From IMG/VR virus record IMGVR_UViG_3300024246_000004, positions 27,446 through 91,445 of that record: 64,000 nt of DNA; one strand, given 5' to 3'. The stretch is from a virus. Taxonomy: Duplodnaviria; Heunggongvirae; Uroviricota; Caudoviricetes. Positions 9,700-25,379 of this stretch are shown piece after piece (within the stretch, counting starts at the first letter, position 1; each line of letters begins with the position of its first letter). The notes under the pieces are model-generated. The model ran no database searches. It was not told the DNA's origin and saw nothing but the letters and a program-made list of their open reading frames with translations. Position numbers and translations under genes: made by a program.

Positions 9700-9782
9700 G
9701 GAAGGTCCGACACTGGTGCGTCAAGCGTCTTCGAAAGGCGTGGCGGTGAAAGCCGTTAGCGGTTCGAGTCCGCTACCTTCCG
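9700..9782 (+). tRNA. tRNA-Ser(CGA), long variable arm
   Basis: GGAAGGT/ACCTTCC; anticodon loop TTCGAAA; T-arm AGCGG-TTCGAGT-CCGCT. Confidence 0.65.
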
Positions 9783-9834
9783 CTACCAGCAGCCGAGGTC
9801 AACGCGTATCCCAAAATCGTTCTGCTGCTGGTTT

Positions 9835-9918
9835 GGAGAGTTGCCGGAACGGTAACGGCGCCGCCTTGAAAGCGGACGGCAGGGAAACCTGGAGCAGGTT
9901 CGACCCCTGCACTCTCCG
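9835..9918 (+). tRNA. tRNA-Ser(TGA), long variable arm
   Basis: GGAGAGT/ACTCTCC; anticodon loop CTTGAAA; variable-arm hairpin CAGG-GAAA-CCTG; T-loop TTCGACC. Confidence 0.7.
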
Positions 9919-9923
9919 CGCGG

Positions 9924-9994
9924 TCCCCGCTAGTTCAATGGCAGAACGCTCGACTGTTAATCGAGAAGTACCTGGATCGATACCAGGGCGGGGA
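9924..9994 (+). tRNA. tRNA-Asn(GTT)
   Basis: TCCCCGC/GCGGGGA; anticodon arm CTCGA-CTGTTAA-TCGAG; unusual T-loop ATCGATA. Confidence 0.65.
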
Positions 9995-10012
9995 GCATGA
10001 AAGGGGGCGGTT

Positions 10013-12574: not shown

Positions 12575-12690
12575 GAGTTCGATCGGCGTGGGACTCCCCT
12601 TCCGTTGGACGGTTGGTTGACGGCTCGCACAGCGCCACAGAGCGCTGTTGACGGCCGGTTGGGCATCACCTTACCGGGGGACGCCCGGTA

Positions 12691-12716
12691 GCGCCGTAGG
12701 GACGTCCCTACGGCGC
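12691..12716. promoter_or_regulatory. 26-bp perfect palindrome GCGCCGTAGGGACGTCCCTACGGCGC next to a TTGACTAACGTAGCG promoter-like element
   Basis: Self-complementarity checked by hand. Confidence 0.55.
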
Positions 12717-12720
12717 TACG

Positions 12721-12954
12721 TTAGTCAAGCCTCCGGGCGAGCAGGCGCACGAACGCACGCAACTCGCCTGCTTCACGGCACCAAGTGGCATGCCGGAACA
12801 ACCCGGCCTTGCACCATGGTCCTGTATCGAACACGCATATAGCGCACATCTCGGTGTGCTCGACATAGTGTCTGCGAGACTCGGCGAGATGCGCCTTGAG
12901 AGCGGCGAGTTGCTCTAATGCTTGCTGACGCGTCATGCGCGGGGGTACGGCCAT
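12721..12954 (-). CDS. Hypothetical small protein (77 aa)
   Basis: ORF in operon orientation. Confidence 0.45.
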   Translation of the reverse strand: MAVPPRMTRQQALEQLAALKAHLAESRRHYVEHTEMCAICVFDTGPWCKAGLFRHATWCREAGELRAFVRLLARRLD

Positions 12955-13035
12955 ACACTCCCCTTCCGTTCGGTTCGGGTCCGGCGGACATGCCGCAACG
13001 CGCTCCGTGGAGCGCGCCGCAGCAAACCCGCCGGA

Positions 13036-13728
13036 CTACTGGCGGAACGCGACCCACGCGGCCCGGAAGCGCGCCGCGAGCCGCTTGTGCCACGCGGGCA
13101 CGGGGAGCGGCTCCGGCTCCGGCGGAGTCCACCCGTAGTCCATCACGCGGTACGTGCCCGGGTGCATCTCCGTGAGCGGCATGTGGGCCCACCCCATGCC
13201 GGGATAGGGCGTGTGCATGATCAGGTACGGGTCGCCTCCGTCCTCCGGCTCGATCTGCCGCACGGTGAACGCGAACGCGCCGCGCGGGTCGCCCACGCTG
13301 ATTGAAACGGTGACCGCGTCCGACTCCGCGTCGAGGTGGATACCGGCGCTGTTGACCCACGATAGGGGCGTGGACTCTGGGACGTGCACGGGCTTGACGG
13401 GCACGATGCCGTGGCACTGCAAGCTGTCGCACTCGTTCGCGGCGTTCGGGCAGTCATCGGCGCACAGGTGGACCCCGTCGCACTCTTCGCCGTCCGGGTC
13501 GCTGCCGTCCGCGTAGTCGTCCAGCGGACGGCCGCACTCGCCGCACCGGCTGTCGCACACCTCGGAGCCGTCCTCAGCCGTGCCGTCTTCGTCCACGTTC
13601 TCACGGCAGTGCACGCACTGGGACCGGTAGGTGTCGTCCGTGTCGAATTCCACGGTGACGTACTCCGGCGCTTCCGGGGAGTCGTCGTGCTCGACGCTGG
13701 TACCGTCTACGTTCACGCTTGCGTACAT
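13036..13728 (-). CDS. Cys-rich acidic hypothetical protein
   Basis: Start MYASVNVDG with SD GAGGAGAAACGATC-ATG; several CxxC motifs. Confidence 0.55.
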   Translation of the reverse strand: MYASVNVDGTSVEHDDSPEAPEYVTVEFDTDDTYRSQCVHCRENVDEDGTAEDGSEVCDSRCGECGRPLDDYADGSDPDGEECDGVHLCADDCPNAANECDSLQCHGIVPVKPVHVPESTPLSWVNSAGIHLDAESDAVTVSISVGDPRGAFAFTVRQIEPEDGGDPYLIMHTPYPGMGWAHMPLTEMHPGTYRVMDYGWTPPEPEPLPVPAWHKRLAARFRAAWVAFRQ

Positions 13729-13816
13729 GATCGTTTCTCCTCTGTTCGCCGTTCGGCTTGCCCGACCGGAGAGCGCGACCCACGGCCGTAACCGCGCGTC
13801 ACGCGAACCGTTCGGT

Positions 13817-14272
13817 TTACTTGACATCCCTGGTCTGTACGTAGTGCTGACGCTCGGCCGCGCGGCTCTTGACGCTGGCAATGAGCTTGCGGTCGGTAAA
13901 CGTCCGGCATCGTACGACGCCAACGACCCCACCTCTGTTGCCGACGTTGAACCCTGGCTCGTTACTGAATTCCCAGAGCTCGACCGTCGATTGAGCGACG
14001 CGGTATCTGCACTCGGTGCGGCTCAGAAAGCCGTACGTCTCGCTGTAAGACGTGTTCGCCCTTTCCAGGGCCACACCGTAGGTACGCTCTATCGCGCGCT
14101 TCAACGCGGATACTTCGGCTGCGCGGACGCGGCGGTTTTCGGTGCTGTCGCTACGCAGCACGACGAAATGCATGTCGCCAGCGAATGCCATATCCAGGCA
14201 ATCGGATACGGCCATGCTGCTTAGATGCGGCATGTAGGCGCAGTAATCGGTCTCGTTCAGTTCCGCCGTCAT
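13817..14272 (-). CDS. Hypothetical protein
   Basis: GAGGAG SD followed by tandem ATGs; exact start uncertain (14272-14299). Confidence 0.45.
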   Translation of the reverse strand: MTAELNETDYCAYMPHLSSMAVSDCLDMAFAGDMHFVVLRSDSTENRRVRAAEVSALKRAIERTYGVALERANTSYSETYGFLSRTECRYRVAQSTVELWEFSNEPGFNVGNRGGVVGVVRCRTFTDRKLIASVKSRAAERQHYVQTRDVK

Positions 14273-14352
14273 CGTCATCATCTCCTCGGCTTGTCTCATT
14301 CAGCGCCGTGCGCGCCACGCACGGTCAGACCGGCCGGAGCCGGTTTCGACGT

Positions 14353-15498
14353 TCAGGAGAGCTTGCAGCGGGTCAGGACGGTGGCCTTGACGCCGTTGTA
14401 CTCGTCAAGCTTCTTCACGGTGCCCGTGATCGTCACCATGACGCCCGTCTCTTCGCCGAGCGCGGGACGCGACGCAAACCACTTCACGATGTTGCCGGTC
14501 TCCGCGTTGCGCAGCATGTAGAGCGCCGTGCTGCCAAAGTCGGTGGAGATCCACCGGAGCGACTCAATCACGCCCGTGAAGGTGATCTTGTCCTTTTCCG
14601 CGCCGATCCACTCGGATGGCCGCGACCGCTCGGCGCGGCGAACCAAGTCACGCTCTTGGCTGCGGGCCCACGCCTGGGGCGCGGACGCCAGGATGCCGAT
14701 ATAGCGGGGGTTGACGGCTTGCGCACCGGCAAGCGACTTCAGGTTGAGCACGTAATCCGAATCGCCGCCAAACGCGTCAGAGAGCAGGAACGCCTGCAAT
14801 TCCCGTGCGCGCTCCGTGGCCTCCGCAGCAAGCGGCCGGATCATCGCGGCAAACTCGCGGGTCCACTTGTCGCGGCCCGGGTAGAGCGCCGTACGCACGT
14901 TCTGCGCCGTCGAATCGATCATGCGGCTAGGCCGGAAACCGTACGCCTTGACGACGGCCCACGCGACCGCGAGCACGGTTTCGGCGCTGTACTCGAAAAC
15001 GCCACCGGCTCCGCACCAATCGCCCAGTTCGGACTCTTCCGGGGCGTCCAGCCACGCGATGGAAGCCGACCAGCCCAGGAAGTCCTTAAGGCACGTGCCG
15101 CCCACCTGCAACTGACGGCCGGTGACATCGCTGCGTACCAGGTACGTGTTGTTGCGCACGCGCGCCGTCTTGCAGTGGTCGCACCATCCCTCACGCAGGG
15201 TGCTGCGGTCCACGCGGTCGATACCGGGCGCCGAGTTGACGATCAGTCCGGCGCTGGCGTCCCAGTCGAGCCGCGCGAGGAACGTCCACTCGCCGTACTT
15301 GGGCGCGTCGCCCGTGATCAGGCAGTCGAAAGCGTCGTACTCCACGGTGAAGCCGAGCGCGTTGGTCTCGACCACATGCACCGGCTCCGCCGTCAGGACG
15401 AGCCGACCGGCCAGACCGCGCTTTTCGGCCCGCGCGTTGATCTTGGCGAACTTCTCGCGTGTGGCCTCGACTTGCTCGGCGTTGAGTCGGACGGTCAT
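14353..15498 (-). CDS. Hypothetical protein (381 aa)
   Basis: SD AAAGGAACGATC-ATG; long clean frame; a leftward promoter sits just upstream. Confidence 0.55.
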   Translation of the reverse strand: MTVRLNAEQVEATREKFAKINARAEKRGLAGRLVLTAEPVHVVETNALGFTVEYDAFDCLITGDAPKYGEWTFLARLDWDASAGLIVNSAPGIDRVDRSTLREGWCDHCKTARVRNNTYLVRSDVTGRQLQVGGTCLKDFLGWSASIAWLDAPEESELGDWCGAGGVFEYSAETVLAVAWAVVKAYGFRPSRMIDSTAQNVRTALYPGRDKWTREFAAMIRPLAAEATERARELQAFLLSDAFGGDSDYVLNLKSLAGAQAVNPRYIGILASAPQAWARSQERDLVRRAERSRPSEWIGAEKDKITFTGVIESLRWISTDFGSTALYMLRNAETGNIVKWFASRPALGEETGVMVTITGTVKKLDEYNGVKATVLTRCKLS

Positions 15499-15526
15499 GA
15501 TCGTTCCTTTCGGGTAGCGGACTGAC

Positions 15527-15562
15527 ACGGGCTACGTTAGTCGCCTGCGCGTTATGCGTCAA
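15527..15562 (-). promoter_or_regulatory. Sigma70-like promoter TTGACGCATAAC-N-ACTAACGTAGC (-35 TTGACG, 17-nt spacer, -10 TAACGT)
   Basis: Member of a family of 6 near-identical elements upstream of leftward genes. Confidence 0.6.
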
Positions 15563-15936
15563 CTCCGCTTGCGCAGGCGCAGCCTGACCAGATCACCGTT
15601 GTCCGCTTGATACCGGCCGTACCAGCGCCGTCCGTCCGGAGTGACCGCGTAGACGCTGGTGAGGTGAAGCGGCAGGCCGTACGTGCTGTAACGCTTCCGG
15701 CTGGTCGCGGTGTCCGTCACGGTGGCCAGAGGTCCGCCGGTCCACGTCGTGATCCGGCCGTGCTGAACGTAACCGCCGAACACGGTGGTTTCGGGGCTGA
15801 GCACGTGCGCGAGTTCCCGCGCGTCGCAACAGGCGTAGCAGAGCCGCTCGCCCGTGGCCTCCCACGTGCCGTAGCCGGTGCCGATTCCCGCGTTGAGAGT
15901 CGGAGCGTGCCCGCAGTCCAGAATGATCTCAGTCAT
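15559..15936 (-). CDS. Hypothetical protein
   Basis: ORF; stop overlaps the downstream start. Confidence 0.45.
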   Translation of the reverse strand: MTEIILDCGHAPTLNAGIGTGYGTWEATGERLCYACCDARELAHVLSPETTVFGGYVQHGRITTWTGGPLATVTDTATSRKRYSTYGLPLHLTSVYAVTPDGRRWYGRYQADNGDLVRLRLRKRS

Positions 15937-16390
15937 TGTCGTTGCCTTCCATGCGTAGGTTGATCATGTAGTCTGTCGGGTACAGCGCTTCCCGGATGCG
16001 CTGCGGATTCGGCGTATACGGGCCATTGCAGAGTCCTGAGATCTCATCGCGGATCAGGCTGAGCGTCGCTTCCGCGCGCAGCGCGCGGGCCCGGTAGTCC
16101 TCCATGAGGCTGGTCGCTATGGACAGGTTGTCCTGCGCGCTGGCCAGCATGAGCGTGGTCGCAAGTGGCTGCACGTTCGCCGGAAGGTCCCAGATATCAA
16201 CGTCGGCCGTCCCGTCCCCGCTTTCGTTGTACGACTCCGCGCACAGTTCGCAGACGTACCCGCCGGGTACTCGGTACTTACGAGTGTTGGGAAGGTTCTG
16301 CATGCGGCACTCGGCGCACGTGAAGTGAGAAGTCGGCTCCGGCTCTGGCGCGCCATCCGGCCACGGCGGACCCACGTATTCGCTGGTCAC
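15929..16390 (-). CDS. Hypothetical Cys-containing protein
   Basis: ORF; coupled ATGACTGA junction. Confidence 0.45.
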   Translation of the reverse strand: MTSEYVGPPWPDGAPEPEPTSHFTCAECRMQNLPNTRKYRVPGGYVCELCAESYNESGDGTADVDIWDLPANVQPLATTLMLASAQDNLSIATSLMEDYRARALRAEATLSLIRDEISGLCNGPYTPNPQRIREALYPTDYMINLRMEGNDND

Positions 16391-16392
16391 GG

Positions 16393-16713
16393 TCAGTAGT
16401 CCTTTCCGTTGGCGCGGAGCCTGTCCGCGTACCGGTCAAGCACGGTGCCGAACGCCGCGAGATCTTCCACGGTGACCGTGCCGTCATCCAGCATGTCCTG
16501 AATGTCGCTGTCCGGGTAGTCAGCGCTGTTCCCGTCACATCCCGCGCCGTGGCGGAACTGCCACGCGTCCGGGACCATGTCCGGGTCGGCGTGCCAGAGC
16601 ACGTCCGCCACGCCGAACTGCCATCCCATGACGGACCCCCACGTGTCGGCGGGGTCGAACGCCATGTCGAAGTCTGCGCGCAGCGCTTGGTATCCCTCGG
16701 TGTGCATGTCCAT
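16393..16713 (-). CDS. Hypothetical acidic protein
   Basis: SD AGGAG then ATGATCATG. Confidence 0.45.
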   Translation of the reverse strand: MDMHTEGYQALRADFDMAFDPADTWGSVMGWQFGVADVLWHADPDMVPDAWQFRHGAGCDGNSADYPDSDIQDMLDDGTVTVEDLAAFGTVLDRYADRLRANGKDY

Positions 16714-16787
16714 GATCATCTCCTGTGTCAGAGCCCTGAGCGGGCACGGCCGGAGCCGGGTACGGGGCCCGGCTCCGCCGAATCGGC

Positions 16788-18041
16788 TCAGAACTCGTCG
16801 AGCGCGGACCGGTACGGCAGGCAGATACGGCACTGCTGCACGTGCTCTCCGATTTCGTCCCGGTCGGGGGTCGCGTTCACGTGCCGCGCTGTGTCGAAGA
16901 TCAAGAAGATCTCTTCGCAGTCACTCGTGGGGAGTGCATCCTCCAAACCCGCGAGGCAGAACCGCTCATATCGCGCGGTGAGAGCGTCCCACGCGAATTG
17001 CGCCGCCGCTTCGGTCCCGTACTGGTCCACGGTCACGAAACCCAGGCTGTCCGTGGCCAGAACGGCGCACTCGGCACGGAACAGCGAGTAGTGCCCGAAA
17101 CCGTCCGTGTCGCCCATGGTGTCATCCGGGAAATCGGAGTCGTGCAGCCGCTCGGCCAGGCCGTTGCTGAACTTCTCGGAGGTCGCAGGCCACTGCATCG
17201 CGTCCGCCAGCTTCCGCCACTCGTTATCTGTGACGATGATGCCCGTTCCGCCGTTCGCGCACGTCTCGGGACGGTATCCAGCCGCGTAGAGCGACAGACC
17301 GTCTTCCCATTCGACGAAATCGACTTGCGTACCGTCCGACGCGCGGTAGACAGCGCAACCGGCCGTCACTCCGTTGGAGACCTTGACCACGCGGGTATCG
17401 ACGTCGCCCCAGTAGGGATTGGGCGTGAAATCGTCCGTGACGGCCGGAGCCGGTGCGGGGGCGGCGTTGCCCGCCGGTACCTCGGAATGGGCCGCAGCGT
17501 CGCTCTGCGGCTCGCCCTGGGGCATGTGCGGGTCGGCCGGGCCGAACGGGTCACCCATCATCGCCCGGTACGCCTCGGACGCCGCCTGATCGGGCGACAG
17601 GTGACGCTGCGCATAGTGCTCGCGGGCCATGGCGTAAGCGTCGCGCGCCACGGCCGCAGCACCGATCAGCGCGCCGTTGAAGAAAGCGGCGCAACCTCCA
17701 CCGTTCACGGACTCGATCGAGTAGCGGCCGTCACCCTCGCGGGCAGACTCCCCCGTACCGACCACCGGCCGGATATCGATCCCGGTGCGGCCGTTGACGG
17801 TGACCCGGTCGGCCCGAGCGAGCAAGTACGGGCCGTCCAAGATCTTGAAATAGGCGATGCGGTTACGAACCCACCCGCCATGCTCGACGTAGCCGGACCT
17901 GATACCGGCCGTGGCGCCCATGCTCCACGTGATGACGCCGTAATCGTCCGAGATGGCGAAGCGGACGCTGTAACCGCCGCCCAGCATGCTGTAGTCATGC
18001 AGTTGCTCGCCGCGCGCGTTGAACGCGTGCAATTGGTACAT
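16788..18041 (-). CDS. Hypothetical protein (417 aa)
   Basis: SD AGGGAG 10 nt upstream of the ATG; long frame. Confidence 0.55.
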   Translation of the reverse strand: MYQLHAFNARGEQLHDYSMLGGGYSVRFAISDDYGVITWSMGATAGIRSGYVEHGGWVRNRIAYFKILDGPYLLARADRVTVNGRTGIDIRPVVGTGESAREGDGRYSIESVNGGGCAAFFNGALIGAAAVARDAYAMAREHYAQRHLSPDQAASEAYRAMMGDPFGPADPHMPQGEPQSDAAAHSEVPAGNAAPAPAPAVTDDFTPNPYWGDVDTRVVKVSNGVTAGCAVYRASDGTQVDFVEWEDGLSLYAAGYRPETCANGGTGIIVTDNEWRKLADAMQWPATSEKFSNGLAERLHDSDFPDDTMGDTDGFGHYSLFRAECAVLATDSLGFVTVDQYGTEAAAQFAWDALTARYERFCLAGLEDALPTSDCEEIFLIFDTARHVNATPDRDEIGEHVQQCRICLPYRSALDEF

Positions 18042-18122
18042 GGTGTCAACTCCCTGAGTTGTCTCGTTCAGCGCCGTGGGAATCACCCACGGACGGACGG
18101 GGGATCACTCCCCCGTTTCGAC

Positions 18123-18374
18123 CTAGCGGGAGAGATGCGCGGGGGCGGTCAGCGCGCGGTACTTGTCGAGCGCCGTCTCATACCAGCGCTCGGTGCGCTG
18201 GGTGATACCCGCGCCGTCCGCCAGTTGCGCCGCCACCTGCGCGCTGGTCTCCCACGCGCTCCCGGCCACGGCGGACACGGTGTCCTGCCACGCCTGCCGG
18301 AAGGTGCGGGTCGGGGCGCTGCTGCGGCGCGGCGCGTTGCCGCCGGTGAGGGCGTTGCCATTCCTGCGAACCAT
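18123..18374 (-). CDS. Hypothetical protein
   Basis: SD GAGGTAACGATC-ATG. Confidence 0.5.
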   Translation of the reverse strand: MVRRNGNALTGGNAPRRSSAPTRTFRQAWQDTVSAVAGSAWETSAQVAAQLADGAGITQRTERWYETALDKYRALTAPAHLSR

Positions 18375-18403
18375 GATCGTTACCTCTTTCGTGTCGGTGT
18401 GCT

Positions 18404-18441
18404 GTACGTACGCTAGTACCGGATGTGCGATGCGTCAACTA
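18404..18441 (-). promoter_or_regulatory. Sigma70-like promoter TTGACGCATCGCACATCCGGTACTAGCGTAC
   Basis: Same family; -35 TTGACG, 17-nt spacer, -10 TAGCGT. Confidence 0.6.
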
Positions 18442-18695
18442 CACCGGTCGAGCCAGTAGTTCAGCCCGAACGGCGTGGCCGTGGCGTCCGCCAGGTACTT
18501 GTGAGCCAGCTCTGACGTGTTGAACGGGCCCACGGCACCCAACCTGTCCACGGCGCCGTACCGGATTTCGATGATCTTGCGTACGGTTTCCTCGGTGTGC
18601 GGAGCGCGGTCGCCATCGGTCACGGTGACCGTTCCGGAACCCTCGGTTCCCCGGAGGAACAGAACGGCCCAGTAAGCCAACGTGTTGTCAGCCAT
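18435..18695 (-). CDS. Hypothetical protein
   Basis: ORF. Confidence 0.4.
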   Translation of the reverse strand: MADNTLAYWAVLFLRGTEGSGTVTVTDGDRAPHTEETVRKIIEIRYGAVDRLGAVGPFNTSELAHKYLADATATPFGLNYWLDRCS

Positions 18696-18912
18696 TGCGG
18701 AGCATCCTCTCCGTGTCGCCGGTGATCGCGTCCGTCCGTTCGGCTATCTCGCATACAATGCCTTCCGCGTAGAACGACGGCCCGAACCCTTCCCCGTCCC
18801 ACGCGCCGATAGCGTCAGAGGCCTGAGACTGCCAGTCCCGTAGCGCCCGTTCGATCTCGCATACGCCGTTCGCCAGACGTACCCGCGCGCGATCTTGCGG
18901 AGTGTCGCTCAC
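18688..18912 (-). CDS. Hypothetical protein
   Basis: ORF with an overlapping start/stop. Confidence 0.4.
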   Translation of the reverse strand: MSDTPQDRARVRLANGVCEIERALRDWQSQASDAIGAWDGEGFGPSFYAEGIVCEIAERTDAITGDTERMLRNG

Positions 18913-19133
18913 GACCCACCCCCGTAGGTTTCGACACGGGCCGCGTACTCATTGAGCGAGTCCGCGAGAGAGCGCGCCTGCGCGGGGGTGAACTGCGCGT
19001 GAATCCGCCGCCCCGCATTCGGCTCCGGTTGCCCGGTCACGGTGAGATCCAGATTCACGTAGTACGTACGGTCCCGCGAATCCCACCCCATGCCGCTCGC
19101 CGCGAGCACGGCCGTCCAGATCTTCCGGTACAT
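18909..19133 (-). CDS. Hypothetical protein (75 aa)
   Basis: Internal ATG chosen; upstream frame extension is Gly/Arg-rich. Confidence 0.35.
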   Translation of the reverse strand: MYRKIWTAVLAASGMGWDSRDRTYYVNLDLTVTGQPEPNAGRRIHAQFTPAQARSLADSLNEYAARVETYGGGS

Positions 19134-19135
19134 GC

Positions 19136-19567
19136 TCAGCCCTCCCGCCGGACATAGAGGGTGGTGAACTCTTCCACGGTGCGTGCGCCACGGTCGCAGG
19201 AACCGAATTCGTTGAACGTCACGCTGTAGGCCACACACGGGATGCCCGTACCGTCCAGATAGAGCGCGTCCACCCGCACACGCGTCGTATGTCCCGCGCG
19301 CTTCCATGATTCGCCCGGCAGGGGCGTACGGACCGGCTCCGGCCATTCGGGCGACGCGATCGCGAGGTACGGCGCGAACGGCGCGGTTCCCACCCGCAGA
19401 CTAGACAGGACCACCGTGTCCCGCTCGGCACTCGCAGCGCTTTGCAGTACGGGCACGCCGTCGCACGACTCGCGACGCCACACGGCGCCGTCATAGGCGC
19501 ACACGTGCGTCCCCTCGGGCAGGGCGAGCAACTCGCCGTAAGTCCACAGTTCACGCGGCTTGCTCAC
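19136..19567 (-). CDS. Hypothetical protein
   Basis: GTG start 2 nt after the upstream stop; the N-terminal part of the 244-aa track ORF is low-complexity. Confidence 0.35.
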   Translation of the reverse strand: MSKPRELWTYGELLALPEGTHVCAYDGAVWRRESCDGVPVLQSAASAERDTVVLSSLRVGTAPFAPYLAIASPEWPEPVRTPLPGESWKRAGHTTRVRVDALYLDGTGIPCVAYSVTFNEFGSCDRGARTVEEFTTLYVRREG

Positions 19568-19569
19568 GG

Positions 19570-19812
19570 TCAGGCTCCGAGCGCGGAGCGACCGGCGATC
19601 GTCAGCACGACGCGCCGACCGGCGCGGCCGTTGGACAGCCGGGTACGGGACGCGCCGTTGACCCGCACGACGCCGCGCGCCAGCAGGGACCGGAAGGTCT
19701 GCGCGGTGACCTGCGCGCCGTACACGCGTCCCGCGTTGTCCACGTAGACCTTGACGGTCCGGACGGCCGCGAGCGCGGAGGCCTGGACGGGGGACAGTTT
19801 GGTCGAGCTCAT
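19570..19812 (-). CDS. Hypothetical protein (80 aa)
   Basis: SD GGAG followed by ATGATGATCATG. Confidence 0.5.
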   Translation of the reverse strand: MSSTKLSPVQASALAAVRTVKVYVDNAGRVYGAQVTAQTFRSLLARGVVRVNGASRTRLSNGRAGRRVVLTIAGRSALGA

Positions 19813-19898
19813 GATCATCATCTCCAGGATTTAAGGGTGTTGTCCGGCTGAGTACCGGCGGGTAGAGCACGGGCTAGCCGCACTCCCCCGTCTGGCGA

Positions 19899-20600
19899 TC
19901 AGTAGGTCAGCAGGTTGCGCAAGCCGTCCAAACCGTCGTCTGCGTCGAAGGTGACGGGGTTCGCCGTGCCGTGTGCGGCCACCGTGGCGTCCGTGAGGGC
20001 ACCGGCGGCAACGTCCGCGTCCTGCGCCGCCATCTCGGCCTGGTGAGCCTCGTACGCGTCCGCGACCGCGTCGGCCGCAGTCTCATCGATCCACAGGCCG
20101 TCACGCATGATCCGGGTGACGGGGAAGGTACGCGAGCGGCGGGAAACCCACTCCTCAGCGTCCGCACGGCGGGCGAAATGCATGTCGTTGCGACCCTCGC
20201 TGCGGAACGTGCGCCACTCGCCTCCGGCCGTCCGGTACTGCGCGGTGAACGGCTTGAACGCGTTCTCGAAGGCCTCCGCCGTGTCGTACGCGTCGCCCAT
20301 GGCGTTGAACAACCGGTCGCAGGTGGCGCAGTCGTTGCCGGAGTCGAACCCCTTGCACCGCGACTGGTGGAGGTAGCGCTTGTCATCCGCCGCGCCGTGC
20401 TCGGCCCATAGCGCGGCGGACGCCTCGGCCCGGTCCACCCACACCCGGCCGGTGGTCAGGCTGCGATCGATCAGGCCACGGTCCAGCAGCGCCGTGAAGG
20501 TGGCGAACCGGATGTCGGCGGCCTTGACCCATTCGTCTGCGGCCTCGGCGCGCGCGAGCGTCATCAGGACTTTGAGCTGGGGTGCGGTGATCTTCGCCAT
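19899..20600 (-). CDS. Hypothetical protein (233 aa)
   Basis: SD GAGGAGACGGCC-ATG; a leftward promoter sits upstream. Confidence 0.55.
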   Translation of the reverse strand: MAKITAPQLKVLMTLARAEAADEWVKAADIRFATFTALLDRGLIDRSLTTGRVWVDRAEASAALWAEHGAADDKRYLHQSRCKGFDSGNDCATCDRLFNAMGDAYDTAEAFENAFKPFTAQYRTAGGEWRTFRSEGRNDMHFARRADAEEWVSRRSRTFPVTRIMRDGLWIDETAADAVADAYEAHQAEMAAQDADVAAGALTDATVAAHGTANPVTFDADDGLDGLRNLLTY

Positions 20601-20627
20601 GGCCGTCTCCTCGGTGGGTCGGTGCGT

Positions 20628-20668
20628 GGGGGATACGTTAGTCCCCGGGATGTGATGCGTCAACCCTG
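20628..20668 (-). promoter_or_regulatory. Sigma70-like promoter TTGACGCATCACATCCCGGGGACTAACGTATCC
   Basis: Same family. Confidence 0.6.
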
Positions 20669-20857
20669 GGAGTCGTGCTCTCCCATGGCCCAGCCGAGCG
20701 CGACCACGGCGAGCACGGTGAGCGCCGCGACCAGGACGCCCGCGCCGACGCAGAGCAGATAGAGCCAGTCCGCGCCGGTGAGCGGCGCGTGCGGGCACGG
20801 CGCGTGGCAGTAACCGCCGCCGCCCCCTTTGATCACAGGTCCGCGCGGGTTGGGCAT
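20660..20857 (-). CDS. Small membrane protein
   Basis: Hydrophobic C-terminal half; start uncertain. Confidence 0.35.
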   Translation of the reverse strand: MPNPRGPVIKGGGGGYCHAPCPHAPLTGADWLYLLCVGAGVLVAALTVLAVVALGWAMGEHDSQG

Positions 20858-21099
20858 CAGGACACCCGCCCGGTCTCGCGGTACGTCTCCCACGCGTCCG
20901 ACAGGGTCGGGCGGGTACGCAGGTCGCCTGCGTAGTACGCCGTGACCGCGTCCACGTAGGACTGCGCGAACTCGGTGGGCACCGGCGCGTCCATACGCGT
21001 CAGCTCCGGCATCGCGTCGCGCCGTCCGGACGCGTAGCCCAGCGCGAGCATGCGGGAACGGAATTCGTCGGGGGTGTCGGCAGGGTAGGCCTGGGCCAT
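20857..21099 (-). CDS. Hypothetical protein
   Basis: SD GAAAGGCCGTGACC-ATG. Confidence 0.45.
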   Translation of the reverse strand: MAQAYPADTPDEFRSRMLALGYASGRRDAMPELTRMDAPVPTEFAQSYVDAVTAYYAGDLRTRPTLSDAWETYRETGRVS

Positions 21100-21101
21100 G
21101 G

Positions 21102-21338
21102 TCACGGCCTTTCGATCAGCGATGCGGGAGCGTCCGCGCGCCATGCCCGGCAGGCCAGGCACGCACACGTCTCGGGGGTGTGGTCGCGTTCCACCGTGTC
21201 AATCAGGGTGTCCCACGCGGTTTGCTCGGCGCGGTCGAACCGGGCCCATTGCGCGGTGTCGCTCATGCGCTGTTGCGTGCGGTAGGCCACGGCCCACGCG
21301 TCGAACAGCGCGCGGCCTTCGGCGATCTTGCTCGGCAT
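21102..21338 (-). CDS. Hypothetical protein
   Basis: SD AAGGACACAGCC-ATG. Confidence 0.5.
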   Translation of the reverse strand: MPSKIAEGRALFDAWAVAYRTQQRMSDTAQWARFDRAEQTAWDTLIDTVERDHTPETCACLACRAWRADAPASLIERP

Positions 21339-21348
21339 GGCTGTGTCC

Positions 21349-21744
21349 TTAGATGTAGCGGGCGTGGGACGGGCGGCGGGCGGGCATCCGCAGGCGCGGC
21401 ATGCTCGGGCGGCTCGCCACCGGCAGGCGGCGGTACCAGCGCACGCCCAGGAACAGGTACACGGGCACGGAGAAGTAGAACGCGGGGAGGATCAGGAACA
21501 GCAGCGAGACTTTCAGCCGCTTCGCTGCGACCGCGTGGCGCTGATTGAACGTCGGGCGCGGCGGGGCCACGGCGAACAGTCCGCGCCCGCCGACCGCGTT
21601 CACCTGGTACCCGGCGGAGGCGAGCAGCATGTGCGCCTGCCCGCTGACCACCGTGTTGGGGAACGCGAGCACGTATCCGCCGTTGGGGGACAGGCTCGCC
21701 TGGTGTGCGATGCCGAGTTCCGCGAGGATCCTCATCTGGGCCAT
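21349..21744 (-). CDS. Membrane protein
   Basis: SD GGAAGGCAACGATC-ATG; hydrophobic segments. Confidence 0.5.
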   Translation of the reverse strand: MAQMRILAELGIAHQASLSPNGGYVLAFPNTVVSGQAHMLLASAGYQVNAVGGRGLFAVAPPRPTFNQRHAVAAKRLKVSLLFLILPAFYFSVPVYLFLGVRWYRRLPVASRPSMPRLRMPARRPSHARYI

Positions 21745-21774
21745 GATCGTTGCCTTCCGTGTGAGCGGTGCGTG

Positions 21775-21815
21775 AGCGCTACGTTAGTACCAGGTGTGTG
21801 ATGCGTCAAGCGTCA
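21775..21815 (-). promoter_or_regulatory. Sigma70-like promoter TTGACGCATCACACACCTGGTACTAACGTAGCG
   Basis: Same family. Confidence 0.6.
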
Positions 21816-22115
21816 GTTGGAGCCGGTGAACCATCCGGGGGTGCCGTACACCTCGTAGCCGAACGTCCAGTTCTCCGGCGTGAGCGGGGTGTGCCAGAAG
21901 TAGCCGCCGTTCAAGGCGGAGCCGTAGCCGTAGCGGTGCACCGACAGGGCGACCACGGCCAGAGCGACCGCCAGCGCGGCCCACAGCGCCACCGTGACGG
22001 CCTTGCGGTAGTCGCGCGCCGCACGGTGCCTGGGCTCGGCGGACGGGCGCCACACGGCGCTGTGCGCGGTCGCCGTGGTCGCGGCGTCGTTCAGGATCAT
22101 CTCGTCGCTCGGCAT
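21813..22115 (-). CDS. Membrane protein
   Basis: ORF with a hydrophobic core. Confidence 0.4.
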   Translation of the reverse strand: MPSDEMILNDAATTATAHSAVWRPSAEPRHRAARDYRKAVTVALWAALAVALAVVALSVHRYGYGSALNGGYFWHTPLTPENWTFGYEVYGTPGWFTGSN

Positions 22116-22210
22116 GGGGAAACCTCCAGGATCGGTAGGGACCGGCTGAGTACCGGACGCTGCGGCCCGTGCGAGACGGACCGCGCGCTCTGGCGATCAG
22201 AGATGGACGC

Positions 22211-22408
22211 CTACACCCGTGAGCGCGAGCCTTGAACGATGGCGACCAGGGACGCGGCGAACGCGAACAGCGCCATACCGAAGATCACACCGGCCCACAC
22301 GTCGGCCTGAGCGAGCACGGCCATTGCGGCGACCAGCGCCACGCCGGTGCACAGGAACAGCACGGCGACCAACATCATTTCAACCATCTGGACGACTGCG
22401 GCGACCAT
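22211..22408 (-). CDS. Small membrane protein (65 aa)
   Basis: SD GGAAGGTTTGGATC-ATG; two hydrophobic helices. Confidence 0.5.
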   Translation of the reverse strand: MVAAVVQMVEMMLVAVLFLCTGVALVAAMAVLAQADVWAGVIFGMALFAFAASLVAIVQGSRSRV

Positions 22409-22482
22409 GATCCAAACCTTCCGGTAGAGGGGTGTTGCCGAGTAGCCGCGCGCCGATCCGCGAGCGCACGCGCGGCCGGGTG

Positions 22483-22725
22483 CTACCGGACGGGAACGGT
22501 GAGCGCGATGCGGGGCAGGCGCGCCGCCACGTCCGCGTCGATCTCGGACTGCGGGCGCACGCGGTGCACGTCGAAACGCGCCATCCCGAGGCTCGCGGCC
22601 AGACGCCGCACCTCGCGCAGCGCTTCGGCGTCATCGGCCGCTTCGAACGGGATGTGCCGCACGGGGGCGTTGGACGGCATCAGGATGGCGACATAGTCCA
22701 CGGTGGGCCCGTATGCGTCGTTCAT
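22483..22725 (-). CDS. Hypothetical protein
   Basis: SD GAGAGGACCGACC-ATG. Confidence 0.5.
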   Translation of the reverse strand: MNDAYGPTVDYVAILMPSNAPVRHIPFEAADDAEALREVRRLAASLGMARFDVHRVRPQSEIDADVAARLPRIALTVPVR

Positions 22726-22754
22726 GGTCGGTCCTCTCGGTCGGGGGTGCGGGG

Positions 22755-22795
22755 GATACGCTAGCGCGGTACGTGTGATGCGTCAAGCTCACCAG
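22755..22795 (-). promoter_or_regulatory. Sigma70-like promoter TTGACGCATCACACGTACCGCGCTAGCGTATCC
   Basis: Same family. Confidence 0.6.
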
Positions 22796-23427
22796 CCCTG
22801 CCGAATCTCCTCATCCGTGGCGTAGTGCGCGGGGCCCATGCACAGCGCAAGCGACATGCCGTGCTCGCACTGCGGATACAGCCGCTTGACCAGCCGCCCG
22901 CAGGCGTCCGGAACCGGCTCCGATTCCACCTCGGCGAAGTAGCGCCCCGGGTGGGCATCCATGTACGCGAGCACCTGGTCTTGCGTGGCGAACCGGACAC
23001 GGTAGGACATCCACGGGCCGGAGCCGGAACCCCGAACGTCAAGGACGATCGGCGTAGCGGCATCCGAGGCGTCCAGCGCAGCGCGCTCGGCGGCGAGCCG
23101 GACGTCAAGCAAGCGGAAGTACTCGGCCCACAGGTGAGCGGCCGTGTCTTCCAAGATCTCGTCGTGCGGGAAAGCGTTCGCCGCGTCCTGCGCGTCCTGC
23201 GCTGCCACGTAAGCCGCGTGAGACGCATCGTAAGCCGCGACGTGCGCCGTGCGCAGTTCGGCCAGCACGGCGGCTTTGCCGGGCGTGTAAAGCCGGGAGA
23301 GAGCGTCGGTGCCGTTGCGCTCGGCCGTGCGGCGGCAGTTCAAGCACACGGGCACGTTGTAGTCGTACGCAGGCTGTCCGCAGTGCTTGCACGGGCCGCC
23401 GTAGCGGTGCGCGATGTCGCTTGCCAT
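22789..23427 (-). CDS. Cys-rich hypothetical protein (212 aa)
   Basis: SD GAAAGGCTGATC-ATG; CKHCGQ...CLNCRR motifs. Confidence 0.55.
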   Translation of the reverse strand: MASDIAHRYGGPCKHCGQPAYDYNVPVCLNCRRTAERNGTDALSRLYTPGKAAVLAELRTAHVAAYDASHAAYVAAQDAQDAANAFPHDEILEDTAAHLWAEYFRLLDVRLAAERAALDASDAATPIVLDVRGSGSGPWMSYRVRFATQDQVLAYMDAHPGRYFAEVESEPVPDACGRLVKRLYPQCEHGMSLALCMGPAHYATDEEIRQGW

Positions 23428-23451
23428 GATCAGCCTTTCGGTCGGAAGCGG

Positions 23452-23492
23452 AACAAGGGCGAGACTAGTACTCGGCGCGTGATGCGTCAACC
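23452..23492 (-). promoter_or_regulatory. Sigma70-like promoter TTGACGCATCACGCGCCGAGTACTAGTC
   Basis: Same family; first promoter of the leftward block, divergent from the terminase operon. Confidence 0.55.
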
Positions 23493-23512: not shown

Positions 23513-24031
23513 ATGGCAGCACTACCCGCCGACGCCAAAGCCATGACACAGGTCGAGCGGCGCCACAAAGCCATCGAGATGCGCCGCGTCGGCATCCCCT
23601 GGGAGAAAATCGCCGAAGAATGCGGCTACTCCACCCCCGCCGTCGCAGCGGCCGACATCTACAAAGTACTCAGCGACCGCGTCCGGGAAATGGGCGACGC
23701 CGTCTCCGCGCTGCGCTCTTTGGAAGCCGACAAACTCGACGCCATGGAACGCGTCATCATCAACGTGATGCGCAAACCCCATATCCTTGCGCAGCAAGGC
23801 CGCATCATCATCGACCCCGCCACCGGGAAACCGGCAGAGGATCCGGGCCCCGTCTTCCAATGCGTAGACCGGCTCCTGCGCATCGCCGAACGCAGAGCGA
23901 AACTCCTCGGAATCGACAACCCCGTCAAAACGCAAGTCGAAATCAAGGCGGTGGGCGTTGACGCCGAAATTGCCGGAATCCTGGCAGGAATGGTCACCGG
24001 AAGAGAAGAAGAAACTCCTCGCGACGCTTAA
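23513..24031 (+). CDS. Terminase small subunit (putative)
   Basis: Position directly upstream of the large terminase; HTH-like N-terminus, oligomerisation-like C-terminus. Confidence 0.55.
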   Translation: MAALPADAKAMTQVERRHKAIEMRRVGIPWEKIAEECGYSTPAVAAADIYKVLSDRVREMGDAVSALRSLEADKLDAMERVIINVMRKPHILAQQGRIIIDPATGKPAEDPGPVFQCVDRLLRIAERRAKLLGIDNPVKTQVEIKAVGVDAEIAGILAGMVTGREEETPRDA

Positions 24032-25379
24032 ATTCGCCCAATGGCGTCAAGCCGCCCGCACCGACCAGCTACCCCCGCGCGGCCCGTGGGTCACCCTCTA
24101 CCTGCGCGGCGGACGCGGAAGCGGCAAAACATGGTCCGGAGGCCATATCCTCCTGGAGCGCGTCCTAGCCGACCCCGAACCGGGAGAATGGGCGGTCGTC
24201 GCACCGACGTACGAAGATGCGTGGGCCACCTGCTGCGAAGGCCCCAGCGGCATCCTCGCGGCACTGGGAACCAACGCCGTGCAGGTCAAACAGCACGACT
24301 CGCCCCTCGTACGGTACTGGAACCGCACCATGGGCGAACTACGCATGCGCAACGGACACCTCATCCGGTTCGCCTCCGCCGACGACGGAGCGCTGAGGAT
24401 CCAGGGCAAGAACCTCAAAGGCGTATGGGCCGACGAAATCGGCCTCTGGGACAAATGGCAGACCGCCTGGGACGAATCCATCCAATACGCGGTACGCATG
24501 GGCGACGCGATCCGCATCGTCACCGGCACACCCAAATCGAGCCGCAAAGCCCGCGAACTGATCAAACGGCTCATGCTCGACCCCGCCGTACACGTGCAAG
24601 TCCTGCGCACCGTAGACAACGCCGCCAACCTGAGCCCCGCGTTCATGGCCTCCGTCGTCGCCGCCGCGAAAGGCACCCGGCTAGAGCGGCAAGAACTCGA
24701 AGGAGAACTCCTCGAAGATGTAGACGGCGCACTGTGGACCCTGGAGATGATCGAACGCGGACGCGTAGACGAACACCCCGAACTGAGCCGCATCGTCGTC
24801 GCCGTAGACCCCGCCGTCACCGGCAGCGAAACCAGCGACGAATCGGGAATCGTCGTCGTCGGAGAACACCAAGGCCACGGCTACGTACTCGCCGACTACT
24901 CCATGGTCGGCTCACCCCAAGAAGTCATGGAGAAAGTCGTCTGGGCCTACCACGAACACCAAGCGGATAGGGTGCTCGCCGAAGTCAACAACGGCGGCGA
25001 CTACATCGGCACCCTGCTGCGCGTCGTCGATTCCTCCGTGCCCTACCAGGCCGTGAGGGCGACCAGAGGCAAACTGCTGCGCGCCGAACCGGTAGCGGCG
25101 CTCTACGAACAAGGCCGCATGCACCACGTCGGACGGTACCTCGATCTTGAAGAACAGATGATCGTCTGGCACCCCGACAGCTCGAAAAGCCCCGACCGCC
25201 TAGACGCATTGGCATGGGCCGTAGCAGGACTACGCACCCTCACCGCAGGATCATGGGCACAAGCCCACGGCATCGTCTACTGCGACGAATGCCAACAGCC
25301 ATTCATGATCAAACTACACCCGCTGAACTGCCCCAACTGCCGCACAACACACGGAAAAGGCACCGAAATAGGGAGCTGA
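23958..25379 (+). CDS. Terminase large subunit
   Basis: Walker A-like GGRGSGKT near the N-terminus and a nuclease-type C-terminal half; TTG start overlaps terS by 74 nt. Confidence 0.7.
   Translation: MTPKLPESWQEWSPEEKKKLLATLKFAQWRQAARTDQLPPRGPWVTLYLRGGRGSGKTWSGGHILLERVLADPEPGEWAVVAPTYEDAWATCCEGPSGILAALGTNAVQVKQHDSPLVRYWNRTMGELRMRNGHLIRFASADDGALRIQGKNLKGVWADEIGLWDKWQTAWDESIQYAVRMGDAIRIVTGTPKSSRKARELIKRLMLDPAVHVQVLRTVDNAANLSPAFMASVVAAAKGTRLERQELEGELLEDVDGALWTLEMIERGRVDEHPELSRIVVAVDPAVTGSETSDESGIVVVGEHQGHGYVLADYSMVGSPQEVMEKVVWAYHEHQADRVLAEVNNGGDYIGTLLRVVDSSVPYQAVRATRGKLLRAEPVAALYEQGRMHHVGRYLDLEEQMIVWHPDSSKSPDRLDALAWAVAGLRTLTAGSWAQAHGIVYCDECQQPFMIKLHPLNCPNCRTTHGKGTEIGS

What the first reader, a model, noticed from the sequence alone, without database searches (positions are those of the whole stretch)
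12700..23492. Six near-identical sigma70-like promoters (TTGACGCATCAC - 17 nt - TA[A/G]CGT) driving the leftward 12-23.5 kb block
On the coding (minus) strand, elements at about 15560, 18440, 20665, 21812, 22790 and 23490 read TTGACGCAT(C/A)AC, then a spacer, then (T)ACTA(A/G)CGTA. The -35 hexamer is perfect, the spacer is 17 nt, and the -10 is TANNNT-like. This fits the HrdB/sigma70 consensus of high-GC actinomycetes. Conservation extends 6 nt beyond the -35 (GCATCAC), which suggests an additional factor-binding site. Each element sits 30-45 nt upstream of an SD-ATG.
Basis: seen in the sequence. Interest (0 to 1): 0.6.

Follow-up and report, generated by a model that had tools for sequence, protein, structure and literature searches.

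The report
Six stereotyped early promoters in an actinophage
Six almost identical bacterial-type promoters head six consecutive operons of unknown-function genes in a large uncultivated phage of high-GC actinobacteria; this is an ordinary kind of phage feature, but part of each promoter differs between related phages and another part belongs to a genome-wide motif.

Summary
Six minus-strand sites (first T at 23490, 22786, 21809, 20663, 18438, 15562) read TTGACGCAT(C/A)(A/G)C, with exactly 17 nt between the hexamers, then TA(A/G)CGT (TAGTCT at the first). An SD-ATG follows 32-36 nt later. They are the only TTGACR-N16-18-TANNNT matches in 64 kb (0.43 expected).

The window is part of a large phage (91-kb contig; a relative's contig is 119 kb). 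It has a 36-tRNA array, RNA-repair genes and ribosomal proteins L13/S9. The host is probably in the Catenulisporales. The sites head six operons (22 genes), which end at a strong hairpin at about 12.7 kb.

Two syntenic relatives carry five such promoters each in the same block. TTGACR, TARCGT and the leader CCGAAAGG..GATCATG are conserved. The bases after the -35 differ between phages: CATCAC, GGGCGCCAGT or AYGGTCC. This fits a phage-specific factor or concerted evolution.

The "-10" is one instance of a lineage-wide core, TA(A/G)CGTA. It has 33 copies against 3.5 expected, nearly all intergenic, with a strand polarity that flips at 24-26 kb.

Verdict: primary-sigma-type, probably early promoters, a new member of a known kind. 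No transcription data exist.

The parts
23428..23490 (-). Promoter module P1. The -35 TTGACG is at 23490-23485, followed by the extension CATCAC; the -10 TAGTCT is at 23467-23462. The leader has SD GAAAGG and the ATG is at 23427 (212-aa gene, 23427-22789). P1 is divergent from the TerS-like gene (ATG 23513).
   Evidence: an orthologous promoter with the same TAGTCT -10 is present in relative 1
22726..22786 (-). Promoter module P2. The -35 is at 22786-22781 and the -10 TAGCGT at 22763-22758; the ATG is at 22725. It heads an operon of 80, 65 and 100 aa.
21745..21809 (-). Promoter module P3. The -35 is at 21809-21804 and the -10 TAACGT at 21786-21781; the ATG is at 21744. It heads an operon of 131, 78, 80 and 65 aa.
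20601..20663 (-). Promoter module P4. The -35 is at 20663-20658 and contains the TGA stop of the upstream 65-aa gene. The -10 TAACGT is at 20640-20635 and the ATG at 20600. It heads an operon of 233, 80, 143, 74 and 86 aa.
18375..18438 (-). Promoter module P5. The -35 is at 18438-18433 and contains the TGA stop of the 86-aa gene; the extension is CATCGC. The -10 TAGCGT is at 18415-18410 and the ATG at 18374. It heads an operon of 83, 417, 106, 124 and 125 aa.
   Evidence: the ortholog in relative 1 has its own promoter
15499..15562 (-). Promoter module P6. The -35 is at 15562-15557 and contains the TGA stop of the 125-aa gene; the extension is CATAAC. The -10 TAACGT is at 15539-15534 and the ATG at 15498. 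It heads an operon of 381 aa (phrog_2319), 151, 230 and an uncalled 77-aa ORF.
   Evidence: the promoter is conserved upstream of the 381-aa ortholog in both relatives
12661..12719 (-). Two hairpins at the end of the leftward block, a likely factor-independent terminator without a U-tract. The first has a 14-bp stem (12719-12688) and starts 2 nt after the TAA stop of the 77-aa ORF. The second is at 12686-12661.
   Evidence: minimum free energy -44.7 kcal/mol, z = -5.2, 0 of 200 shuffles as stable
12721..23427 (-). The block that these promoters transcribe: 22 minus-strand genes with no Pfam match. Only the 381-aa protein matches a PHROG family, of unknown function.

Best explanation
The six elements are promoters for the host RNA polymerase carrying its primary sigma factor (HrdB/SigA type). 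Each is a compact expression module of about 63 bp: a -35 TTGACG, a 17-bp spacer, a -10 TA(A/G)CGT, a predicted leader of about 25-29 nt with a GAAAGG-type ribosome-binding site, and an ATG. The modules sit directly against the stop codon of the preceding gene or overlap it, so there is no terminator between operons. Transcription from successive promoters should therefore add up along the block until the strong hairpin at about 12.7 kb. Three features make an early, host-polymerase-only class most likely: a perfect -35, the lack of any phage sigma or RNA polymerase gene in the annotated 45 kb, and a cargo of small genes of unknown function beside the terminase and palindrome region. The 6-8 bp after the -35 (CATCAC(A/G)C) are not a known polymerase contact. 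They are conserved within each phage and replaced between related phages. I read them most probably (about 0.45) as the site of a phage-specific regulator that controls the whole early class together, for example by shutting it off. The sequence and comparisons establish the motif, its spacing, uniqueness, position, orientation, cross-phage conservation and the hairpin. Polymerase recognition, transcription start sites, early timing and the role of the extension are inferred.
For: The motif and spacing are far above chance. All six sites are sense-oriented, intergenic or overlapping a stop codon, and lie 32-36 nt from an SD-ATG of a called gene. Relative 1 (IMGVR_UViG_3300044706_000074; TerL 85% aa identity) has five such sites and relative 2 (Logan SRR15167843_90943) has five, in the same block divergent from TerS. 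Both keep TTGACR, a 16-18 nt spacer, TARCGT and the CCGAAAGG..GATCATG leader, while the other spacer and leader bases differ. Promoters stand before orthologous genes: the 381-aa gene in all three phages, the 83-aa gene in relative 1, and the first gene next to TerS. P1 keeps TANNNT without the ACG core (TAGTCT) in both the window and relative 1, as expected if the hexamer works as a -10. The host is an actinomycete: phage L13 is 89-91% identical to Actinocrinis L13, and the best phage protein hits are to Streptomyces and Arthrobacter phages. No sigma or RNA polymerase Pfam hit appears among the called genes of 12.5-57.5 kb. A strong hairpin closes the block. Multiple strongly predicted SigA-like promoters in a leftward block are already documented for Cluster O mycobacteriophages (PMC4351075).
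Against: There are no transcription start, expression or binding data for this uncultivated phage. The generic E. coli-consensus scan finds nothing here because TAACGT matches TATAAT at only 3 of 6 positions. The central ACG of the -10 is far more constrained genome-wide than a TANNNT reader requires: 28 of 43 non-genic TANNNTA sites are TA(A/G)CGTA. This leaves room for a phage factor at the -10. About 55 kb of the genome was not seen, so a phage sigma factor cannot be excluded. Early timing is argued only by analogy.
Confidence: 0.75

Rival explanations
1. The near-identity of the six modules, including the bases after the -35, is kept up by recombination or gene conversion between copies. 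The modules would then act as exchange points for shuffling small early genes, like the PeSL promoter cassettes in the plastic regions of T4-like phages. On this view the extension needs no binding factor. This adds to the promoter function rather than replacing it.
For: The extension is uniform within a genome and different between genomes. Gene content and order in the block are mosaic among the three phages. The 124-aa and 106-aa genes sit on the other side of a promoter in the relatives, the 131-aa gene is second in its operon there, and only about half the genes are shared. PeSL precedent: PMC2839356 and PMC4122927.
Against: Conservation is patchy. The distal half of each spacer and most of each leader differ between copies in the same genome, which is not what wholesale conversion of a cassette produces. 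There is no stem-loop partner upstream of the promoters, because the upstream stop codons abut or overlap the -35. The identical stretches are only about 12-14 bp, which is short for homologous recombination.
Confidence: 0.3
2. The promoters are not read by the unmodified host holoenzyme. A phage-encoded sigma-like or polymerase-modifying factor would recognise the lineage-specific TA(A/G)CGTA core, and the six sites would be one sub-class of a phage-specific promoter system.
For: TA(A/G)CGTA occurs 33 times against 3.5 expected, and 28 times against 1.6 expected in non-genic DNA. Its central triplet is nearly fixed. The motif is shared by the three related phages but absent from more distant relatives and from host rplM upstream regions.
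Against: The six sites have a perfect primary-sigma -35 at the canonical 17 bp. P1 works without the ACG core. No sigma or RNA polymerase domain appears in the 45 kb with gene calls. More distant phages also show their own single dominant TANNNTA heptamer, such as TAGCCTA, TACCGTA or TAAACTA. Stereotyped -10 boxes are therefore common and need no special factor.
Confidence: 0.15
3. TTGACGCATCAC is mainly an operator for a phage repressor, as with the asymmetric 13-bp 'stoperator' sites of mycobacteriophage L5 that overlap the -35 of Pleft. Its resemblance to a -35 would be secondary.
For: It is an asymmetric 12-14 bp motif that contains TTGAC, lies in short intergenic gaps and has a single orientation. 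The L5 comparison is from my own knowledge and was not checked here.
Against: The motif never occurs away from a correctly spaced -10. There are only six copies, all in one block rather than spread over both arms. No integrase or repressor was seen in the window. A phage with 36 tRNAs and RNA-repair genes looks lytic. Across the three phages TTGACR is conserved while the rest of the 'operator' is not.
Confidence: 0.05

Closest known systems
[quoted passage not shown]
   Same: Both are actinobacteriophages with several near-consensus -35/17 bp/-10 promoters. Several of these are spaced along a long leftward block of small genes and divide it into operons. Both were predicted from sequence alone. 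Both phages also carry a separate many-copy repeat with dyad symmetry.
   Different: The hexamers differ (for example TGTCAA-17-TAGAAT in Corndog), and some Cluster O promoters are leaderless. A conserved extension next to the -35 that varies between phages is not described there. The host lineage is also different: mycobacteria there, probably Catenulisporales here.
PeSL (promoter-early stem-loop) cassettes of T4-like phages (PMC2839356, PMC4122927)
   Same: Both are many nearly identical early sigma70-type promoters between small genes of unknown function in a plastic genome region. Gene content around them differs between related phages.
   Different: A PeSL is a composite of a terminator stem-loop and a promoter. 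No stem-loop precedes the promoters here, and upstream stop codons overlap the -35. Recombination between copies has not been shown here.
Symmetric bidirectional promoters with overlapping -10 elements (Warman et al., bioRxiv 10.1101/2020.01.31.928960)
   Same: The lineage-wide core TA(A/G)CGTA has the form TANNNTA. This places a TANNNT hexamer on each strand, offset by 1 bp, which is the arrangement that gives divergent starts 18 bp apart. Eight copies lie in divergent intergenic regions, and eleven lie upstream only of genes on the strand opposite to TAACGTA.
   Different: The six promoters of the finding are made directional by their -35. A fixed central triplet and a strand polarity by genome arm are not features of the described bidirectional promoters.
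Stoperator sites and Pleft of mycobacteriophage L5
   Same: Both are asymmetric motifs of about 13 bp that include a TTGAC -35, are repeated in intergenic gaps and have one orientation.
   Different: L5 has about 30 sites over both arms, most without a promoter, bound by the gp71 repressor of a temperate phage. Here there are six sites, each with a -10 at 17 bp, in a phage with no visible lysogeny genes.

Membership tests
Primary-sigma (sigma70/HrdB/SigA) dependent promoter | A -35 hexamer close to TTGACA and a -10 hexamer of the form TANNNT, separated by 16-19 bp | tested here: met
   TTGACG (5 of 6 positions), exactly 17 bp, then TAACGT, TAGCGT or TAGTCT at all six sites
Primary-sigma (sigma70/HrdB/SigA) dependent promoter | Located upstream of a gene, in sense orientation, at a distance compatible with a 5' UTR | tested here: met
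   All six sites are on the coding strand, 32-36 nt from an SD-ATG of a called gene
Primary-sigma (sigma70/HrdB/SigA) dependent promoter | The hexamers are under selection: conserved in relatives while neighbouring bases drift | tested here: met
   TTGACR and TARCGT are kept in 10 promoters of two relatives whose spacers and leaders differ
Primary-sigma (sigma70/HrdB/SigA) dependent promoter | Transcription starts 6-9 nt downstream of the -10, and the holoenzyme binds or forms an open complex | not testable with these tools
   No RNA or biochemical data exist; the phage is known only from metagenome assemblies
PeSL-type mobile promoter cassette | A terminator stem-loop immediately upstream of the early promoter | tested here: not met
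   Upstream stop codons abut or overlap the -35, and the six upstream flanks share no hairpin
PeSL-type mobile promoter cassette | Gene gains, losses or swaps between related phages are bounded by the cassettes | tested here: inconclusive
   Gene content and order are mosaic, and genes change sides of a promoter. The relatives are too diverged to locate break points.
L5-type stoperator | Many copies spread through the genome, mostly without an associated promoter | tested here: not met
   The 12-mer occurs only at the six promoters. GCATCAC alone occurs at 12 sites: four lie in the promoters and the other eight are scattered, with no shared context noted; no chance expectation for the 7-mer was computed
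L5-type stoperator | A cognate repressor and a temperate lifestyle | tested here: inconclusive
   No integrase or repressor hit appears in the window, but about 55 kb of the genome was not seen
Symmetric bidirectional promoter (overlapping -10 elements) | A TANNNTA core that gives a TANNNT hexamer on both strands | tested here: met
   Five of the six sites read TA(A/G)CGTA; P1 reads TAGTCTC and does not
Symmetric bidirectional promoter (overlapping -10 elements) | A divergent gene or transcript on the other strand | tested here: not met
   For P2-P6 the opposite direction runs into the 3' end of the upstream minus-strand gene. Only P1 faces a divergent gene (TerS), and it lacks the symmetric core.

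The most novel reading that the evidence does not exclude
This phage lineage may build all its promoters on one asymmetric core, (GGAC)TAACGTA(TCAC), which can be read in both directions. Read as TAACGT with a -35 and a phage-specific operator-like extension, it would give the early class (the six sites). Read as TAACGT alone, it precedes the portal and other genes that point away from the terminase region. Read on the other strand as the extended -10 GTGATACGTT, it precedes the tRNA array, the ribosomal-protein genes and the RNA-repair genes, all of which point towards that region. The fixed orientation of the core in each genome arm (32 of 33 copies, conserved in two relatives), together with the replaceable extension, would then encode the temporal programme and would be read by one or more phage-encoded factors that co-evolve with it.
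Probability: 0.2. Interest if true: 0.6.

Novelty: new member of a known kind. Interest (0 to 1): 0.35.

Why it matters
If confirmed, the six modules would be compact (about 63 bp), probably strong promoter-plus-RBS parts for high-GC actinomycetes. They would also define the early regulon of an uncultivated lineage of large phages (relative's contig 119 kb) that carry 36 tRNAs and host-derived ribosomal proteins. The swap of the extension between phages is a clean natural experiment for finding a phage regulator that controls a whole promoter class. Taken alone, repeated consensus promoters in a phage early region are expected and would not surprise a specialist.

Tried and rejected
- DNA searches of the block against 50,697 phage records, both near and distant, found nothing. 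One call failed on a length limit.
- An exact scan of IMG/VR for the promoter pattern found nothing. My first spacing guess for a combined pattern was wrong and also returned nothing.
- Pfam gave no hit for ten proteins of the block. PHROGs matched only the 381-aa protein, to a family of unknown function. No candidate regulator emerged.
- The 417-aa protein has no relative in IMG/VR.
- The JGI metagenome scan with TerL gave only one short contig, which is not syntenic.
- The 212-aa protein has only one homolog among 5.8 billion proteins. That homolog did lead to relative 2.
- The E. coli-consensus promoter scan finds none of the six sites. Its terminator scan is at background level.
- Rfam has no family in 10-64 kb, so nothing points to an RNA element.
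- I considered an ECF-sigma reading (AAC...CGT). The spacing does not fit, and only P6 has AAC.
- I considered a 10-bp pseudo-palindrome, TGACGCATCA. It is broken in P5 and P6 and absent in the relatives.
- I considered that the relative's extension (GCGCCAGT) is a half-site of the ACTGG-N6-CCAGT palindromes. This rests on five bases, and the window's extension shows no such link.
- Host rplM upstream regions carry neither motif.
Full report
**1. The observation**

A search for TTGACGCATMAC with one mismatch allowed returns six matches. All are on the minus strand, ending at 15562, 18438, 20663, 21809, 22786 and 23490. The expectation is 0.40, and none of 100 shuffles reaches six.

Reading the sites in register shows the following:
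- TTGACG is invariant.
- The next bases are CATCAC at four sites, CATCGC at 18438 and CATAAC at 15562, followed by (A/G)C.
- The spacer is exactly 17 nt at all six sites.
- The second hexamer is TAACGT at three sites, TAGCGT at two and TAGTCT at 23490.
- An ATG follows 32-36 nt later, preceded by an SD of the GAAAGG type. Four of the six sites have GATCATG.

The generic composite TTGACR-N16-18-TANNNT occurs nowhere else on either strand of the window. The count is 6 observed against 0.43 expected, with a maximum of 3 in 200 second-order Markov sequences.

**2. What the window is**

The window is phage DNA. It carries:
- a portal gene (54336-57695), a weak, below-cutoff match to the SU10 major capsid family (60876-62774), and a TerS-like HTH gene (23513-24031) with TerL (23970-25379);
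- two RNA ligases, PNKP, Thg1 and RlaP;
- an array of 36 tRNA genes at 1093-9996.

It has no DNA-level relative among 50,697 deposited phage genomes.

The window is the reverse complement of positions 1-64000 of ENA contig ERZ27256701 k141_554652, which is 91,433 bp. The phage also appears in Logan assemblies of SRR7687014.

The phage encodes ribosomal proteins L13 and S9. Its L13 is 89-91% identical to L13 of Actinocrinis MAGs, 86% to Actinospica and 82-83% to Catenulispora, against 72-78% for Streptomyces. The host is therefore very probably a member of the Catenulisporales.

**3. Anatomy of the block**

Gene calls attached to the assembly place all six ATGs at the starts of called genes. 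They divide the minus-strand block into six operons:

| Promoter | Genes (aa) |
|---|---|
| P1 | 212 |
| P2 | 80, 65, 100 |
| P3 | 131, 78, 80, 65 |
| P4 | 233, 80, 143, 74, 86 |
| P5 | 83, 417, 106, 124, 125 |
| P6 | 381, 151, 230, plus an uncalled 77-aa ORF (12954-12721) |

Upstream stop codons lie 2-3 nt before the -35 at P2 and P3. At P4, P5 and P6 the stop is the TGA inside TTGACG. There is therefore no room for terminators between operons, and transcription from successive promoters should accumulate along the block.

Two nucleotides after the stop of the last ORF there is a 14-bp-stem hairpin, followed by a second one. Together they fold at -44.7 kcal/mol, with z = -5.2.

None of the ten block proteins I scanned has a Pfam hit, and none of the called genes has a precomputed one. 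Only the 381-aa protein matches a PHROG family, phrog_2319, of unknown function. P1 is divergent from TerS, whose ATG is 23 nt beyond the -35.

**4. Comparative test**

Two syntenic relatives were recovered.

- Relative 1 is IMGVR_UViG_3300044706_000074 (118,920 bp, with overlapping contig ends). Its TerL is 85% identical and its 381-aa protein 74% identical.
- Relative 2 is Logan SRR15167843_90943. It was found through the only homolog of the 212-aa protein.

Each has five promoters of the same design in the block divergent from TerS.

| Phage | -35 | Bases after the -35 | Spacer | -10 | Downstream |
|---|---|---|---|---|---|
| Window | TTGACG | CATCAC(A/G)C | 17 | TA(A/G)CGT (TAGTCT at P1) | ..CCGAAAGG..GATCATG (consensus) |
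| Relative 1 | TTGACG | (G/C)(G/C/A)GCGCCAGT | 17-18 | TA(A/G)CGT (TAGTCT next to TerS) | ..GAAGGG..GATCATG |
| Relative 2 | TTGAC(G/A) | (A/G)(C/T)(A/C/G)GTCC | 16-17 | TA(A/G)CGT | AAGCACTCCG ... CCGAAAGGCACCGATCATG |

TTGACR, TARCGT and the ribosome-binding and start context are shared across the three phages. The rest of the spacer and leader is not. This is the signature of functional promoter hexamers.

Promoters precede orthologous genes in several cases:
- the 381-aa gene in all three phages;
- the 83-aa gene in the window and relative 1;
- the first gene next to TerS, where the window and relative 1 both have the unusual TAGTCT -10.

The gene content is otherwise mosaic, and some genes lie on different sides of a promoter in different phages.

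**5. The extension after the -35**

These bases, at about -29 to -22, are not a known contact of the holoenzyme (established knowledge). In each of the three phages they are nearly invariant among that phage's own promoters, yet they differ between phages. Two explanations fit.

- A phage-specific DNA-binding factor recognises them and has co-evolved with them. This would allow all early operons to be controlled together.
- Recombination between copies keeps them uniform, as proposed for the PeSL cassettes of T4-like phages (PMC2839356, PMC4122927).

I favour the first explanation moderately, because conservation is patchy. The distal spacer and most of the leader differ between copies within one genome, and there is no upstream stem-loop. 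I found no candidate regulator.

The 12-mer does not occur away from a promoter. This argues against an L5-style dispersed operator.

One curiosity is unexplained. In the window, TTGACGCATCAC matches the lineage core CTAACGTATCAC at 10 of 12 positions. The relatives' extensions show no such match.

**6. The -10 is part of something larger**

TA(A/G)CGTA occurs 33 times in the window against 3.5 expected (maximum 6). In DNA outside called genes it occurs 28 times against 1.6 expected. TAACGTATC is the most frequent 9-mer in the window, tied with two GC-rich words. Of the 34 sites (33 motif copies plus the P1 variant), 33 are intergenic. Among all non-genic TANNNTA heptamers, 28 of 43 are TAACGTA or TAGCGTA.

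The heptamer has the form TANNNTA. This puts a TANNNT hexamer on each strand, which is the configuration that gives divergent starts 18 bp apart in other bacteria (bioRxiv 10.1101/2020.01.31.928960). Only the six sites of the finding add a -35.

The other copies fall into recognisable groups.

- GGACTAACGTATCAC reads on the other strand as GTGATACGTTAGTCC, an extended -10 of the form TGnTANNNT. In that orientation it lies 21-34 nt upstream of several minus-strand genes, including L13 (ATG 40320), the 41392 and 45424 genes and an RNA ligase (47553). At Thg1 the copy lies 33 nt before an alternative in-frame ATG at 50542 (77 nt before the called start at 50498). Copies also lie upstream of parts of the plus-strand tRNA array.
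- GCTTAACGTATC precedes plus-strand genes.
- Four copies (27466, 32589, 35381, 36051) lie exactly 10 nt from a minus-strand ATG. This gives TACGT-TANNNT-N6-ATG, a leaderless geometry.

A strand polarity is unexplained. Every copy left of 23.5 kb except one is on the minus strand, and all 20 copies right of 26.6 kb are on the plus strand, whatever the direction of the neighbouring genes. The same polarity holds in both relatives. The one exception in relative 1 is a full TTGACA-17-TAACGT promoter in the sense of its gene.

The core is lineage-specific. More distant phages lack it but often have their own dominant TANNNTA heptamer. A stereotyped -10 is therefore common and does not by itself require a special factor.

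**7. Comparison with what is known**

Several near-consensus SigA-like promoters that subdivide a leftward block of small genes are already described for Cluster O mycobacteriophages, also from sequence alone (PMC4351075). Near-identical early promoters in plastic regions are known from T4-like phages as PeSLs. The six sites meet every sequence-level criterion of a primary-sigma promoter. They fail the PeSL criterion of an attached stem-loop and the stoperator criterion of dispersed, promoter-free copies.

I file them as a new member of a known kind. The features that go beyond the known cases are the phage-specific extension and the arm-polar, two-way core. Both are observations without a tested mechanism.

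**8. Verdict**

My confidence is about 0.75 that these are working promoters for the host primary-sigma holoenzyme, and about 0.6 that they are early promoters. The factor-site suggestion is plausible and now better defined, but it is unproven. Interest is modest at 0.35. The broader promoter grammar of this phage lineage is the part that deserves follow-up.

Noticed in passing
whole window; for example 975(-), 4101(-), 10457(-), 26639(+), 40345(+), 45458(+), 47587(+), 54307(+): TA(A/G)CGTA has 33 copies against 3.5 expected, almost all intergenic. Copies are on the minus strand left of 23.5 kb and on the plus strand right of 26.6 kb (32 of 33), whatever the gene direction. The pattern is conserved in two relatives, and its cause is unknown.
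   Followed up: partly
window 25900-26350 (also L009 10490-10920): An array of at least 8 palindromes, ACTGG-N6-CCAGT (perfect form ACTGGAGTACTCCAGT), lies within the roughly 1-kb stretch without called genes (25641-26664) downstream of TerL. It sits at the point where the TAACGTA polarity flips. Candidates are a packaging site bound by TerS, a replication origin, or a regulator array.
   Followed up: partly
window 39443-40320 (-): The phage encodes ribosomal proteins L13 and S9 as a pair. L13 is 89-91% identical to L13 of Actinocrinis MAGs, which suggests recent capture from a Catenulisporales host. The phage copy has its own GTGATACGTTAGTCC element instead of the host upstream region.
   Followed up: partly
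window 1093-9996 (+): An array of 36 tRNA genes covers nearly all amino acids, with TACGTTA-oriented copies of the core motif interspersed.
   Followed up: no
window 31069-31464 (-), 43158-54186 (-): There is a dense set of translation and RNA-repair genes: an RF-1-domain protein, RlaP, PNKP (AAA_33/HAD), a T4 Rnl1-like ligase, a second RNA ligase, Thg1 and a Band_7 protein. This suggests a defence against host attack on tRNAs.
   Followed up: no
window 27466, 32589, 35381, 36051 (+): Four motif copies lie exactly 10 nt from minus-strand ATGs. On that strand they read TACGT-TANNNT-N6-ATG, the geometry of leaderless mRNAs. At 35381 the whole divergent intergenic region is only 29 nt.
   Followed up: partly
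window 12721-12954 (-): A 77-aa ORF with a good SD is not called in the public assemblies. Its TAA stop is part of a TAACGTA copy and is followed directly by the terminator hairpin.
   Followed up: partly
window 21554-21655 (-), 31849-31921 (-): Two ARAGORN tRNA calls lie outside the array. The first is 102 nt long and overlaps the 131-aa gene (21349-21744). Rfam's tRNA model does not hit either at its gathering score, so they are probably false positives.
   Followed up: partly
window 54336-57695 (+): The portal protein is unusually long (1119 aa). The portal domain covers only about residues 158-532, and a faint ParB_N hit is on record for the same protein.
   Followed up: no
L002, L003, L004, L036: More distant phages that share the 381-aa protein or TerL also carry several near-identical TTGACA-type promoters. 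Each has its own spacer signature and its own dominant TANNNTA heptamer (TACCGTA, TAGCCTA or TAAACTA).
   Followed up: partly
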